Assembly (NCBI GenBank): GCA_000002435.2
Contig: AACB03000022.1
From: Giardia intestinalis
Taxonomy: Eukaryota
Length of the DNA stretch: 2,678 nucleotides
Strand: one strand, 5' to 3'
Shown here: piece by piece, positions 1 through 2,678 of the stretch
Position numbering within the stretch: position 1 is the first letter of the stretch
Layout of the letters: each line of letters starts with the position of its first letter
Made by a program: the position numbers and the translations under genes
Notes under the pieces: model-generated
Databases searched by the model: none
What the model was told of the DNA's origin: nothing
What the model saw: the letters and a program-made list of their open reading frames with translations, nothing else

Positions 1-982
1 CTGGGCCTTGGCGTCGTTCATGGCTCCGAGGTTTTCGGTCAGGGCAGAGACCCTGTCCTCAGCGGCGGCGAGCTGGGCGCGGGCGGTCTGCAGGGCGTCC
101 TGGGCCTCCGCCAGCTGAGCCGCGAGGGCATCTCGCTCGGCCTCCAGATTCTTGTGCTCGGCCTCCAGAGCTGCGCCTCGTCGAGGGCCTTATCGAGGGC
201 CGCACGGGCCTCATCGCGCTCGGCCTCTGCAGCACGCACGTCGGCTCAAGGCGGCGGATGGCCTCGTCGCCGCCCTGCGCCTGCTGTGCCTTGGCGCGGA
301 ACTTCTCTCGGCGGCATCGGCGAGGGCCTCTGTGCCTGCTGCTGCGTGTGCCTCGAGCTCGGCGATTTTGGCGCGGGCGTCGGCAAGCCTTTCTTCGGCG
401 GCCTTGGCCTGAGCTCCAGCTCTGCAGCGCGCTCTGCAAGCGCCTCTGCGTCGCGAGCACGCACGGCATCTTCGGCCGCCTGCTCGCGGAGGCGCGCCAG
501 CTCCTCGGAGAGATCCTCGAGCTGGGCCGCCTTGAGCTGGGCGTCTTCCTGGTGGGCGGCGGCCTGCTCGCGCGCTTCACGGAGCGCCGCTGCGTTCTCG
601 GCTGCGTCGCGGCGGAGGGCTGCAAGCTCCTGCTGAAGCTGCTGCGCGGCGTCGCCGTGGTCGGCAATCCCGTCGATCGCCTCTGCAAGCGCCTTCTCGC
701 GGGCCTCGAGCTTGTCTGTAAGGGCGGCGCTTTCGTCTTCGAGGCGACGGATCCTGTTCTGGGCGTCCTCGAGCGCGCCGTCTGTAGCGCTTCTTTTGAG
801 GTCCATGGCAGTAAGCTGGCGCTCGCGGTCCCGGACCTCCTCTGCTCGCGCTTCGGCCTTGCGGCCAGCGATTGAAGGGCACTCTCCAGCTCGTCGACGC
901 GGTTGCGCAGCCGTGCCGTCTTGGCGGCGCTTTCTTCTGCTTGCTCTGCCTTGCGGCTGCCTCGTCCTCCAGGGCTTGAATC
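1..982. repeat. Copy A of the long direct repeat, truncated by the window start. It is homologous to 1697..2678.
   Basis: Base-by-base comparison: identical to 1697..2678 except for indels at about 175 (-g), 245 (-c), 306-307 (+ct), 414 (-c), 426 (-a) and 842 (+c), plus four sites where B carries the change. There are no substitutions. Confidence 0.95.
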
Positions 983-2678
983 CGCGTTCTGGCGGCCTCG
1001 ACACTGGCCGTTGTTCGGGAAAGTTCGTCACTCAGCTGGCCGATCTCCTTGTCCTTTGCATCAAGGGTGGCATGGAGGTCATCTCGCTCGGCCTCGAGTT
1101 GAACGATGCGCTCTGCAGCGCCTTCATTGTCTTGCGCACGTAGTTGTTGAAGCTCGCGCTCGCGGTTGTCTGCCTCCTCGCGAAGTCTTTCTGCCTCATT
1201 CCGGAGCATGTCAAGCGCCACTGTCTTCTCATCGAGCTCGCCCTGCTTTTGCTCCAGCTCCTTCCTAAGAGCGCTTGCTTCAATAGTATATAATTTGAGT
1301 ATCTGACATCTGTGATTTAAGCTCACTAACAAAATCTTCCAACCGTTGAGTACGTTCTTTGGAATCGTTCGCTCTTTCCTCTGATGCCTTATTTAATTTT
1401 TTCAGGTCTGCTACCTCTGTCAAAAGTTCCTTTTTGTCGCGCTCGAGTTGAGCCACGCGATCAACAAGATCTTGAGATTCCTCTGCCTCTAGTTTCATAG
1501 TGGCAATTTCATCCATTTGTGCATTTAAGTTATCCAATAGCTCCGCCATCTGAATTTCATTGGCTTGTGCCTCATGGGTTCGTCTGGCAAATTCCATCTG
1601 GGACGCGACAAGCGTCTGCTGGAGTTGGATGATCTCCTCTTGGTGCTGGCGAATCGCTTGTCGAAGATCTGGGATGGTATCCTGCATCTCGCGGATCTGG
1701 GCCTTGGCGTCGTTCATGGCTCCGAGGTTTTCGGTCAGGGCAGAGACCCTGTCCTCAGCGGCGGCGAGCTGGGCGCGGGCGGTCTGCAGGGCGTCCTGGG
1801 CCTCCGCCAGCTGAGCCGCGAGGGCATCTCGCTCGGCCTCCAGATTCTTGTGCTCGGCCTCCAGAGCTGCGGCCTCGTCGAGGGCCTTATCGAGGGCCGC
1901 ACGGGCCTCATCGCGCTCGGCCTCTGCAGCACGCACGTCGGCCTCAAGGCGGCGGATGGCCTCGTCGCCGCCCTGCGCCTGCTGTGCCTTGGCGCGGAAC
2001 TTCTCGGCGGCATCGGCGAGGGCCTCTGTGCCTGCTGCTGCGTGTGCCTCGAGCTCGGCGATTTTGGCGCGGGCGTCGGCAAGCCTTTCTTCGGCGGCCT
2101 TGGCCTGAGCCTCCAGCTCTGCAAGCGCGCTCTGCAAGCGCCTCTGCGTCGCGAGCACGCACGGCATCTTCGGCCGCCTGCTCGCGGAGGCGCGCCAGCT
2201 CCTCGGAGAGATCCTCGAGCTGGGCCGCCTTGAGCTGGGCGTCTTCCTGGTGGGCGGCGGCCTGCTCGCGCGCTTCACGGAGCGCCGCTGCGTTCTCGGC
2301 TGCGTCGCGGCGGAGGGCTGCAAGCTCCTGCTGAAGCTGCTGCGCGGCGTCGCCGTGGTCGGCAATCCGTCGATCGCCTCTGCAAGCGCCTTCTCGCGGG
2401 CCTCGAGCTTGTCTGTAAGGGCGGCGCTTTCGTCTTCGAGGCGACGGATCCTGTTCTGGGCGTCCTCGAGCGCGCCGTCTGTAAGCGCTTCTTTTGAGGT
2501 CCATGGCAGTAAGCTGGCGCTCGCGGTCCCGGACCTCCTTGCTCGCGCTTCGGCCTTGCGGCCAGCGATTGAAGGGCACTCTCCAGCTCGTCGACGCGGT
2601 TGCGCAGCCGTGCCGTCTTGGCGGGCTTTCTTCTGCTTGCTCTGCCCTTGCGGCTGCCTCGTCCTCCAGGGCTTGAAT
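1..2678 (-). CDS. Internal fragment (both ends open) of a giant, tandemly repetitive coiled-coil protein gene. The reading frame is interrupted by about a dozen 1-2 nt indels, so it looks either frameshifted/pseudogene-like or laden with indel errors.
   Basis: All six minus-strand ORFs in the track (39..239, 59..688, 246..1031, 577..1332, 1280..2365, 1944..2579) contain long heptad-like A/E/R/L/Q/D/K-rich segments typical of alpha-helical coiled coils. Each of these segments is flanked by P/R/S/T-rich 'wrong-frame' sequence at the exact positions where the two repeat copies differ by an indel. Sense blocks in different frames abut one another and together tile the whole window. The plus-strand ORFs translate to L/G/S/R low-complexity mirror images (GAG->CTC, GCC->GGC). 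No start codon context or terminator is visible. Confidence 0.7.
411..872 (-). CDS. Sense-frame block of about 154 aa in repeat copy A. It is the sense part of track ORF 246..1031.
   Basis: Translation IAGRKAEARAEEVRDRERQLTAMDLKRSATDGALEDAQNRIRRLEDESAALTDKLEAREKALAEAIDGIADHGDAAQQLQQELAALRRDAAENAAALREAREQAAAHQEDAQLKAAQLEDLSEELARLREQAAEDAVRARDAEALAERAAELEL. The corresponding stretch of copy B is split by two compensating indels at about 2484 and 2368. Confidence 0.65.
949..1299 (-). CDS. Sense-frame block of about 117 aa of the same coiled-coil gene. It is the sense part of track ORF 577..1332.
   Basis: Translation LKLYTIEASALRKELEQKQGELDEKTVALDMLRNEAERLREEADNRERELQQLRAQDNEGAAERIVQLEAERDDLHATLDAKDKEIGQLSDELSRTTASVEAARTRIQALEDEAAAR. 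It continues the heptad pattern directly after the block ending at 1283, one frame over. Confidence 0.65.
1283..1570. other. Low-GC compositional island (roughly 40% GC) embedded in coding sequence that is otherwise about 70-80% GC.
   Basis: Hand counts of 60-bp blocks: 1321-1380 is about 43%, 1381-1440 about 38%, 1501-1560 about 37%. For comparison, 61-120 is about 80% and 481-540 about 72%. The flanks 1000-1283 and 1570-1750 are intermediate at about 55-60%. The minus-strand coiled-coil frame stays open across the island. Confidence 0.85.
1283..2128 (-). CDS. Longest uninterrupted sense-frame block, about 282 aa, of the coiled-coil gene. It is the sense portion of track ORF 1280..2365; the first 79 aa of that ORF are out of frame.
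   Basis: Translation ALAELEAQAKAAEERLADARAKIAELEAHAAAGTEALADAAEKFRAKAQQAQGGDEAIRRLEADVRAAEAERDEARAALDKALDEAAALEAEHKNLEAERDALAAQLAEAQDALQTARAQLAAAEDRVSALTENLGAMNDAKAQIREMQDTIPDLRQ...RLEDFVSELKSQMSDTQIIYY*. The block runs without a stop through both the GC-rich DNA and the ~40%-GC DNA. Its terminal TGA at 1280-1282 is probably not a real C-terminus (see findings). Confidence 0.75.
2117..2142. repeat. Local 13+13 nt tandem micro-repeat ctctgcaagcgcg|ctctgcaagcgcc. In copy A (420..444) it is 12+13 nt.
   Basis: Seen directly in the sequence. On the sense strand the 12-nt core gcgcttgcagag encodes A-L-A-E in both units, but the units are 13 nt apart. A frame change therefore sits here in copy B and not in copy A. 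Confidence 0.8.
2124..2366 (-). CDS. Sense-frame block of about 81 aa in repeat copy B. It is the sense part of track ORF 1944..2579.
   Basis: Translation IADHGDAAQQLQQELAALRRDAAENAAALREAREQAAAHQEDAQLKAAQLEDLSEELARLREQAAEDAVRARDAEALAERA, identical to the matching part of copy A. It is bounded by indel sites at about 2368 and about 2126. Confidence 0.55.

What the first reader, a model, noticed from the sequence alone, without database searches (positions are those of the whole stretch)
1..2678. Near-identical direct repeat of at least 982 bp with a 1696-bp period, truncated by both window edges
Positions 1-982 and 1697-2678 are the same sequence apart from 10 small indels. Because the identity reaches both window edges, the window is most simply about 1.6 copies of a ~1.7-kb tandem unit, roughly 565 codons, lying inside a coding gene. 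1696 is not a multiple of 3, but with this much indel noise the true period is probably 1695 or 1698. A coding tandem repeat this long and this identical implies very recent duplication or strong concerted evolution. It could also reflect an assembler mis-handling a repeat array. The true copy number could be far higher than what is seen here.
Basis: seen in the sequence. Interest (0 to 1): 0.6.

Follow-up and report, generated by a model that had tools for sequence, protein, structure and literature searches.

The report
Giardia coiled-coil gene's 1.7-kb tandem repeat
The window is about 1.6 copies of a 566-codon in-frame tandem repeat that builds the long coiled-coil stalk of a Giardia duodenalis ankyrin "head-stalk" protein; the small differences between the copies are sequencing errors, so this is a real but ordinary feature that genome assemblies usually collapse.

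Summary
Positions 1-981 and 1697-2678 align with 976 identical columns, no substitutions and 10 small indel events.

All 10 indels are read or consensus errors. Choosing the frame-keeping variant at each site gives a mosaic of both copies, and that mosaic has no indel against an independent Giardia assembly. The corrected period is 1698 nt (566 codons). The reading frame, on the minus strand, is continuous around the period.

The DNA is Giardia duodenalis assemblage A, 99.6% identical to an assemblage A assembly. It lies inside the gene for the ankyrin plus coiled-coil protein XP_001709357.1, also deposited as GHSP-138 and annotated as GASP-180.

The WB reference protein holds two copies of the main block. 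Five other assemblies break or leave a gap exactly at the repeat. The syntenic Giardia muris gene carries a perfect array of 5.18 units of 1611 nt. The window's unit aligns with that unit end to end in the same phase (38% identity, E 4e-66).

So this is an old tandem array kept uniform by concerted evolution. It most likely sets the length of a coiled-coil stalk, about 84 nm per unit. Copy number in the source genome is unknown, but is probably at least three main blocks. The finding is ordinary in kind, with modest interest.

The parts
1..753 (-). A block, downstream copy. It encodes IRRLED-ESAALTDKLEAREKAL...LTENLGAMNDAKAQ and is about 70% GC. It carries copy-specific read errors at 174, 244, 304-305 and 413. 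Window position 1 is the last base of the ...AKAQ codon, which is the unit border.
   Evidence: It is 98.9% identical to L005 6183-6936, with 3 substitutions and 5 gap columns. The amino-acid sequence is identical to WB P0126 residues 1062-1312 and 1565-1815. Errors were assigned.
754..1269 (-). C block, complete copy. It encodes LRKELEQKQGELDEK...GALEDAQNR and is 57-69% GC. One base is missing from a GGG run (CCC on the + strand) at about 863-866. The same loss occurs in the other copy at about 2560-2563, so it is a systematic homopolymer error. A further copy-specific error lies at 948.
   Evidence: The amino-acid sequence is identical to the WB P0126 spacer from residue 1392 onward, except at the frameshift, where WB reads SLGRKAEARAEE. 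Frames were read.
1270..1598 (-). M block, AT-rich (36-49% GC). It encodes MEFARRTHEAQANEIQMAELLDNLNAQMDEIATMKLEAEES...SELKSQMSDTQI..TIEASA. One extra base in the TATATA run at about 1286-1292 causes a frameshift. This block is absent from the WB 2007 protein model, which has a shorter, partly homologous segment (VHYLEEAARD...MQEMELGT) in its place.
   Evidence: Composition, frames and the alignment to WB. It is homologous to the G. muris unit (ELARRTKEAEDNEAQIAELLDQMNAQMNEINGM...).
1599..1696 (-). I block. It encodes IREMQDTIPDLRQAIRQHQEEIIQLQQTLVASQ. In other assemblies the same sequence follows the last A block and leads into the unique C-terminal region.
   Evidence: It is contiguous with the A block in L005 (DH), and the similarity stops sharply at 1599/1598. 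The same holds in L001 (assemblage B) and L008 (P15). It opens every unit in G. muris.
1697..2450 (-). A block, upstream copy. It carries copy-specific read errors at 2123 (extra A) and 2366 (missing C).
   Evidence: It is 99.4% identical to L005 6183-7034, with 3 substitutions and 2 gaps.
2451..2678 (-). C block, 3' part of a second copy. It encodes IQALEDEAAARAEQAEES...DAQNR. Copy-specific errors lie at 2483, 2539 and 2624, and the shared homopolymer loss at about 2560-2563. Because this block sits upstream of the A block, that A block is internal to the array and not the first one after the unique N-terminal region.
   Evidence: The flank upstream of the repeat in other isolates (...LERELEHANNLIR(H/R)LED) differs from this sequence.
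1..1696 (-). One full period as it stands in the window: 1696 nt raw and 1698 nt (566 codons) after error correction. Block order on the coding strand is I-M-C-A.
   Evidence: Mosaic correction. The mosaic has no indels against L005. It aligns end to end with the 537-aa G. muris unit.

Best explanation
The window comes from inside an in-frame tandem array in a chromosomal Giardia duodenalis (assemblage A) gene. The gene encodes a head-stalk protein with N-terminal ankyrin repeats followed by a very long heptad coiled coil. It is XP_001709357.1, annotated 'axoneme-associated protein GASP-180', and ACJ49153.1, 'head-stalk protein GHSP-138'.

Each 1698-nt unit encodes 566 residues of continuous alpha-helical coiled coil. 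On the coding strand the blocks run I, M, C, A. At 0.1485 nm per residue (textbook value) one unit adds about 84 nm of rod.

Units are kept identical within a genome by unequal crossing-over or gene conversion, that is, by concerted evolution. The array as a whole is old and is shared with G. muris.

By inference, the array works as a length-setting spacer between the ankyrin head and the C-terminal region, and unit number can change by unequal exchange.

The 10 differences between the two copies, plus two further frameshifts, are errors of the sequencing or consensus step. Because the errors differ between the copies, the two copies were read separately rather than duplicated by software.

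Shown here: the repeat, its coding frame, the errors, the gene identity, the orthologous arrays and the helical heptad character. Inferred: the copy number of at least three A blocks in the source genome, the concerted-evolution mechanism and the spacer function.
For: - Repeat: 976 identical columns, 0 substitutions and 10 indels.
- Errors: the frame-keeping choice at each indel is a mosaic, with five sites right in each copy. The mosaic has 0 indels and 3 shared substitutions against the independent assembly L005.
- Period: the corrected unit is 1698 nt with a continuous minus-strand frame.
- Gene identity: the A and C blocks are amino-acid-identical to WB protein P0126, which itself holds two A blocks 503 aa apart. 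The nucleotide sequence is 99.4-99.6% identical to L005.
- Domain structure: orthologues have ankyrin Pfam domains at the N-terminus.
- Synteny: the order NGP1-type GTPase, kinase, this gene, ~3000-aa protein is kept in L002, L004, L005, L006 and L007.
- G. muris orthologue: P0144 (4580 aa) has an 8346-nt array of period 1611 nt, 5.18 copies, 100% nucleotide identity.
- Unit homology: the window unit aligns with that unit from the first to the last residue at 38% identity, E 4e-66, in the same phase IREMQD...DAK(A/E)Q.
- Junctions: every block junction in the window is seen independently. A-I is in L005, L001 and L008. C-A and the junction into C are in WB P0126. I-M is in G. muris.
- Assembly breaks: 100-N gaps cover the repeat in L002 (B) and L006 (A). 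Contigs end at its border in L001, L004 and L008.
- Structure: AlphaFold2 on 280 in-frame residues gives two helices (2-48 and 53-276) at pLDDT 87. Hydrophobic residues show a 3.5-residue periodicity at z = 15 against shuffles.
- Read depth in the literature: raised depth over 'one gene encoding GASP-180' in an AII isolate (PMC4570179), though that paper does not say which paralogue.
Against: - No flanking sequence or read data exist for the window's own source. The array there is seen for only 1.58 units and copy number is unknown.
- The WB protein model has a different, shorter first spacer (period 503 aa) and lacks the M block. No other G. duodenalis sequence available here contains M.
- The DH assembly shows a single copy of the A-I segment. 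That may be a collapse, or it may be real.
- The G. muris array comes from a long-read assembly whose consensus step could overstate identity between units.
- The spacer function is argued by analogy only. This paralogue's localisation was not found in the searchable literature.
Confidence: 0.8

Rival explanations
1. Over-extended cycle. The source genome has only one I-M-C spacer between two A blocks (X-A-I-M-C-A-I-Y). The assembler, or a rolling-circle or chimeric read, walked the resulting graph cycle more than once and added the extra partial C block at 2451-2678. On this reading it is a two-copy segmental duplication and not an extended array.
For: - Only 1.58 periods are visible.
- The WB model has just two A blocks and DH has one.
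- Window position 1 falls exactly on the A|I unit border. That is also the point where the two contexts of A diverge in WB (A-VHYLEE versus A-IREMQ). A contig cut at an assembly-graph fork would look like this.
Against: - The two copies carry different errors. They were therefore read independently and are not a software copy of one consensus.
- The homologous G. muris gene has more than five units.
- Short-read and 454 assemblies break at this spot in assemblages A, B and E.
Confidence: 0.12
2. A small circular DNA of about 1.7 kb, read or assembled past its own start so that it appears as a contig with a direct terminal repeat. It could be an extrachromosomal circle excised from the array or an independent replicon.
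For: - The identity reaches both window edges, as in circular contigs with terminal overlap.
- The reading frame is endless around the period.
Against: - The sequence is part of a chromosomal gene with unique N- and C-terminal flanks in WB, DH, GS, P15 and G. muris.
- There is no replication or capsid gene; the only coherent frame is coiled coil.
- There is no match in the phage, plasmid or viral collections.
- The terminal overlap of 982 nt carries independent errors, unlike an assembler's circular overlap.
Confidence: 0.04
3. Chimeric misassembly. The AT-rich segment 1270-1598 would come from a different locus or organism and was wrongly joined between two reads of the same GC-rich block.
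For: - GC falls from about 0.72 to 0.36 within the unit.
- The M block is missing from the WB protein model.
Against: - The G. muris unit contains a colinear homologue of M directly after I.
- The 3' part of M is homologous to the WB spacer (DSKERTQRLEDFVSELKS versus DSKERTQMLEDYLSELKS).
- The unique parts of the same gene have the same 38-47% GC.
- The frame runs through both junctions.
Confidence: 0.03

Closest known systems
Giardia intestinalis WB protein XP_001709357.1 / ACJ49153.1, 2124 aa ('axoneme-associated protein GASP-180' / 'head-stalk protein GHSP-138'), P0126
   Same: It is the same gene. The A and C blocks are identical at the amino-acid level, and it also contains a long internal direct duplication with A blocks at residues 1068 and 1571. 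The flanks enter and leave the repeat at the same points as in the window.
   Different: The WB model has a 503-aa period. Its only spacer starts with a shorter, diverged segment (VHYLEEAARD...MQEMELGT, 79 aa) in place of the window's I+M (147 aa). The window's 566-aa unit is not represented in it. The window therefore implies at least one unit more than this model, or a different allele or isolate structure.
Giardia muris syntenic orthologue, 4580 aa (GCA_006247105.1, CM016927.1; P0144, L007)
   Same: It has the same gene neighbourhood and the same ankyrin head plus coiled-coil stalk. Its tandem array is built of a homologous unit in the same phase, and its units are identical within the genome.
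   Different: Its unit is 537 aa (1611 nt) against 566 aa. Unit identity between the species is only 38%. It has 5.18 copies resolved in a chromosome-scale assembly. It shows no GC contrast inside the unit (0.60 against 0.59 for the gene).
GASP-180 and the Giardia head-stalk protein family (GHSPs; ankyrin repeats paired with coiled coil)
   Same: The domain plan of ankyrin head plus long coiled-coil stalk is the same, and the database name was propagated from this family. Sources: the review PMC13315228, and Elmendorf et al. 2005 from my own knowledge.
   Different: The original GASP-180 is a paralogue. Its assemblage B orthologues of about 1650 aa (P0007, P0130, P0131) are only 28% identical to this gene's N-terminal region. 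The anterior-flagellum localisation reported for GASP-180 cannot be transferred to this gene.
Trypanosoma brucei p197 (tripartite attachment complex spacer)
   Same: It is a large alpha-helical protein whose centre is a tandem array of nearly identical long repeats, collapsed in the reference genome (3.5 annotated against about 26 real). The length of that centre sets a cellular distance (PMC9546609). It is a functional and technical analogue.
   Different: It is not homologous. Its repeats are 175 aa, it has no ankyrin head, and its orthologues in other kinetoplastids lack the repeats, whereas here the array is shared by two Giardia species. A spacer role for the Giardia protein is untested.

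Membership tests
Orthologue of G. duodenalis head-stalk gene XP_001709357.1 (GHSP-138) | Near-identical sequence to the reference protein or gene | tested here: met
   The A and C blocks are amino-acid-identical to P0126. Window 1599-2450 is 99.4% identical at the nucleotide level to the assemblage A locus L005.
Orthologue of G. duodenalis head-stalk gene XP_001709357.1 (GHSP-138) | Location in the syntenic chromosomal locus (GTPase - kinase - gene - ~3000-aa protein) | not testable with these tools
   The window has no flanking sequence. Synteny is shown only for the orthologous loci L002, L004, L005, L006 and L007. A very recent paralogous copy elsewhere cannot be excluded.
Giardia head-stalk (ankyrin + coiled-coil) protein family | N-terminal ankyrin repeats | tested here: met
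   They are not in the window itself. The orthologues P0003, P0124, P0126 and P0144 carry Pfam Ank_2, Ank and Ank_4 hits at the N-terminus.
Giardia head-stalk (ankyrin + coiled-coil) protein family | Long alpha-helical heptad coiled-coil stalk | tested here: met
   AlphaFold2 gives two long helices at pLDDT 87. The 3.5-residue hydrophobic periodicity scores z = 15. Pfam gives only sub-threshold generic coiled-coil hits.
Giardia head-stalk (ankyrin + coiled-coil) protein family | Association with axonemes or the cytoskeleton | not testable with these tools
   It needs localisation data. None was found for this paralogue.
In-frame tandem repeat array under concerted evolution | Head-to-tail copies with no unrelated spacer, periodic up to the limits of the available sequence | tested here: met
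   The periodicity covers the whole window. In G. muris the array is perfect over 8346 nt.
In-frame tandem repeat array under concerted evolution | Period a multiple of three, with an open frame across unit junctions | tested here: met
   The period is 1698 nt after error correction, and the frame is continuous through all block junctions.
In-frame tandem repeat array under concerted evolution | Two or more complete units in the source genome | tested here: inconclusive
   The window shows 1.58 units. The partial C block upstream of the first A block implies at least three A blocks if the source has the usual unique-flank-to-A junction, but there are no spanning reads.
In-frame tandem repeat array under concerted evolution | Units more alike within a species than between species | tested here: met
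   The window copies are identical after correction and the G. muris units are 100% identical. Between the two species the units are 38% identical.
Small circular replicon (contig with direct terminal repeat) | Replication-associated gene or origin, and no chromosomal flanks | tested here: not met
   The only coherent frame is coiled coil. The same sequence is embedded in chromosomal genes. There is no phage, plasmid or viral match.

The most novel reading that the evidence does not exclude
The current G. duodenalis gene models for this head-stalk protein (2124 aa in WB, 1621 aa in DH, fragments in GS and P15) are all too short. The real gene would carry several 566-codon I-M-C-A units, as the G. 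muris orthologue does, giving a protein of more than 300 kDa. Unit number would differ between isolates and assemblages and would set the length of a cytoskeletal or flagellar tether. The ~70% GC of the homogenised A and C blocks, in a gene that is otherwise about 42% GC, would be a footprint of GC-biased gene conversion within the array.
Probability: 0.4. Interest if true: 0.4.

Novelty: new member of a known kind. Interest (0 to 1): 0.3.

Why it matters
The practical point concerns annotation. A large Giardia cytoskeletal protein, already listed as an immunogenic head-stalk family member, is probably mis-sized in every G. duodenalis assembly examined here. The window holds a unit type (the I-M part) that the WB protein model lacks. 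Proteomic, antibody or knock-down work based on that model may therefore be using the wrong protein length and missing sequence.

The biological point is modest. A 1.6-1.7 kb coiled-coil unit has stayed tandemly repeated and internally identical in two Giardia species whose units are only 38% alike. That is a clean example of concerted evolution acting on a structural spacer. It also offers a testable length-ruler hypothesis like the one shown for T. brucei p197.

Tried and rejected
- Stop-free length as a way to pick the correct variant at each indel. It did not discriminate, because GC-rich DNA is open in most frames. I used coiled-coil frame continuity instead and validated the result against L005.
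- Pfam. It gave only generic coiled-coil families, all below their curated cut-offs.
- BLAST against phages and plasmids, and a 47-mer scan of viral contigs. There was no match, so there is no support for a mobile or viral origin.
- Two exact-pattern scans of JGI metagenome contigs, one with a 30-mer conserved between assemblages A and B and one with a 26-mer from the M block. Both found nothing, so the source contig and further copies of M could not be recovered.
- Exact look-up of three window ORFs in the protein collection. None is present, so the source record remains unidentified.
- The WB protein P0126. It has no contig on record, so WB DNA could not be compared.
- Tandem Repeats Finder on the G. 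muris locus. It returned nothing because its longest period is 500. I measured the periodicity directly.
- Literature searches for GHSP-138 and for the accession numbers. They found nothing.
- The G. muris and WB genome papers. Neither mentions this array.
- The plus-strand ORFs of 86-222 aa. I dismissed them as antisense artefacts of GC-rich coding DNA. They are rich in Arg, Ser, Ala, Gly and Cys and have no homologues.
- The 42-nt 'non-canonical intron' reported in two WB genes annotated GASP-180. It could not be tied to this gene.
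Full report
**1. Observation**

The window contains the repeat as described. A global alignment of 1-982 with 1697-2678 gives 976 identical columns, no substitutions and 10 internal indel events, nine of 1 nt and one of 2 nt. In gapless blocks the offset drifts between 1696 and 1698. There are no inverted repeats. The match runs to both window edges.

**2. Coding strand and nature of the indels**

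All three minus-strand frames carry stretches of an Ala/Glu/Leu/Arg/Gln-rich protein, and these stretches swap frame at the indel sites.
- At five sites copy 2 keeps the frame: 174, 244, 304-305, 413 and 948.
- At the other five sites copy 1 keeps the frame: 425, 669, 785, 842 and 928.
- The resulting mosaic unit is 1698 nt long.
- Against an independent assembly (L005) the mosaic has three substitutions, the same in both copies, and no indel.

Every difference between the copies is therefore an error in one copy, and the corrected copies are identical.

Two frameshifts remain.
- One base is lost from a GGG run at about 863-866 and again at about 2560-2563, so it is common to both copies. The WB protein reads SLGRKAEARAEE at that point.
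- One base is extra in a TATATA run at about 1286-1292.

These two cancel, so the true period is 1698 nt, or 566 codons, and the frame is endless around the period. Indel-only errors, mostly at short homopolymers, point to an indel-prone platform or a thinly covered long-read consensus (my knowledge). Because the errors differ between the copies, the copies were read separately.

**3. Identity**

The stitched unit protein has no curated Pfam family above threshold. It does hit a partial G. duodenalis assemblage B protein, GSB_151937, at 89% identity.

I followed that gene through several assemblies.
- In assemblage B (L001, L002) it encodes N-terminal ankyrin repeats and about 900 aa of unique coiled coil. 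The window-like repeat follows, and then a unique 280-aa C-terminus.
- The 90%-identity cluster of the N-terminal region contains four relevant proteins:
  - WB XP_001709357.1 / ACJ49153.1 (2124 aa; 'axoneme-associated protein GASP-180' / 'head-stalk protein GHSP-138');
  - ESU39728.1 (1621 aa; I recall this as the DH isolate, assemblage AII);
  - two partial P15 proteins.
- Window 1599-2450 is 99.4% identical to the ESU39728.1 locus L005. The window is therefore assemblage A.
- It is 94.6% identical to P15 and 84.6% identical to GS.

**4. Anatomy**

On the coding (minus) strand the window reads as follows:
- partial C block (2678-2451);
- A block (2450-1697);
- I block (1696-1599);
- M block (1598-1270);
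- C block (1269-754);
- A block (753-1).

The similarity to L005 starts sharply at ATCCGTCGCCTCGAAGAC (IRRLED) and stops sharply after GTCGCGTCCCA (VASQ).

The WB protein has the order X-A-S1-C-A-I-Y, where X and Y are the unique N- and C-terminal regions. Its A and C blocks are identical to the window's. Its S1 segment (79 aa) stands where the window has I+M (147 aa), and only the last ~40 residues are homologous. The WB period is 503 aa. DH has a single A-I segment, and 2124 - 1621 = 503.

The window's first A block is preceded by C, not by X. A source genome with the usual X-to-A junction would therefore hold at least three A blocks, which is one unit more than the WB model. This is an inference.

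**5. Is the I-M-C-A unit a real tandem unit?**

A full HMMER scan with window 1283-1696 found one representative, P0144, with six matching stretches.
- P0144 is a 4580-aa G. muris protein on chromosome record CM016927.1, in the same gene neighbourhood.
- It holds an 8346-nt array of period 1611 nt, 5.18 copies, 100% identical at the nucleotide level.
- The window unit aligns with the G. muris unit from first to last residue, at 38% identity and E 4e-66. The alignment includes I and M in the same order and phase.

This makes a chimeric origin for the AT-rich M block unlikely. It also shows that the array predates the split of the two species, while units stay identical within each. That pattern is concerted evolution.

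**6. Assembly behaviour**

Assemblies repeatedly fail at this repeat.
- Metagenome scaffolds have 100-N gaps exactly over it, in L002 (B) and L006 (A).
- The GS contig L001 ends inside it.
- The P15 contig L008 starts inside it.
- The Logan contig L004 stops at its upstream border.
- Ankarklev et al. report raised read depth over 'one gene encoding GASP-180' in an AII isolate (PMC4570179). The paralogue is not specified.

Window position 1 coincides exactly with the A|I border, where the two contexts of A diverge in WB. That would fit a contig cut at a graph fork. I cannot test this.

**7. Protein character and likely function**

AlphaFold2 on 280 in-frame residues predicts two long helices at pLDDT 87. 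Hydrophobic residues show a strong 3.5-residue period, z = 15. One unit would add about 84 nm of coiled coil (566 x 0.1485 nm, textbook value).

The best functional reading is a length-setting stalk or spacer between the ankyrin head and the C-terminal region. The closest worked example is T. brucei p197, whose repeat array was also collapsed in the reference genome and whose length sets a cellular distance (PMC9546609). This is analogy and not evidence. GASP-180 proper is a paralogue, only 28% identical, so its flagellar localisation cannot be transferred.

**8. Rivals**

- An over-extended graph cycle or a two-copy duplication remains possible (about 0.12).
- A 1.7-kb circle is unlikely, because the sequence sits in a chromosomal gene and there is no mobile-element signal.
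- A chimera is unlikely, given the G. muris colinearity.

**9. Verdict**

The feature is real and correctly read by the first stage. It is a long in-frame tandem repeat in a known Giardia head-stalk gene, seen through noisy sequence. It is ordinary in kind. Its value is that current gene models probably under-count units and lack the I-M unit type, and that the array is conserved and homogenised across Giardia species. Interest is 0.3.

Noticed in passing
window 1-1269 and 1697-2678 versus 1270-1696: There is a strong GC contrast inside one repeat unit. The A and C blocks are 57-75% GC. The I and M blocks are 36-57% GC, like the unique parts of the same gene (38-47% in L002). The G. muris unit shows no such contrast (0.60 against 0.59 for the gene). 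This could reflect GC-biased gene conversion in the most often homogenised part.
   Followed up: partly
window 1 (and 1696/1697): The window's first base is exactly the last base of the ...NDAKAQ codon. That is the unit border, and it is also the point where the two contexts of the A block diverge in the WB protein (A-VHYLEE versus A-IREMQ). It may mark a contig break at an assembly-graph fork.
   Followed up: partly
window ~863-866 and ~2560-2563: The same one-base loss in a GGG/CCC run occurs in both copies, unlike the ten copy-specific indels. It indicates a systematic homopolymer error as well as random ones.
   Followed up: yes
L007 5956-14301 (G. muris CM016927.1): There is a perfect 5.18-copy, 1611-nt tandem array inside a 4580-aa ankyrin/coiled-coil gene. 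A term search of the G. muris genome paper for tandem, coiled, GASP and axoneme-associated found no mention of this array.
   Followed up: yes
WB genes GL50803_0061565 and GL50803_00137716 (literature, PMC10711314 Table 1): A 42-nt non-canonical, rarely spliced 'intron' is reported at CDS position 4091 in two genes annotated GASP-180, with exon GC of 66.6%. It may be a repeat-variant mapping artefact and not splicing. Whether either gene is the one studied here was not established.
   Followed up: no
window 175-245 vs 314-384, 192-227 vs 1060-1095 and 1210-1245: Weak internal direct repeats, 61-78% identical over 36-71 nt, lie within the unit (families D3 and D6). They suggest the unit itself grew from shorter coiled-coil modules.
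   Followed up: no
L005 (DH) 3001-7866 versus WB P0126: The two assemblage A gene models differ by exactly 503 aa, which is one WB-type repeat period. Either the DH 454 assembly collapsed the duplication, or unit number truly differs between sub-assemblages AI and AII.
   Followed up: partly
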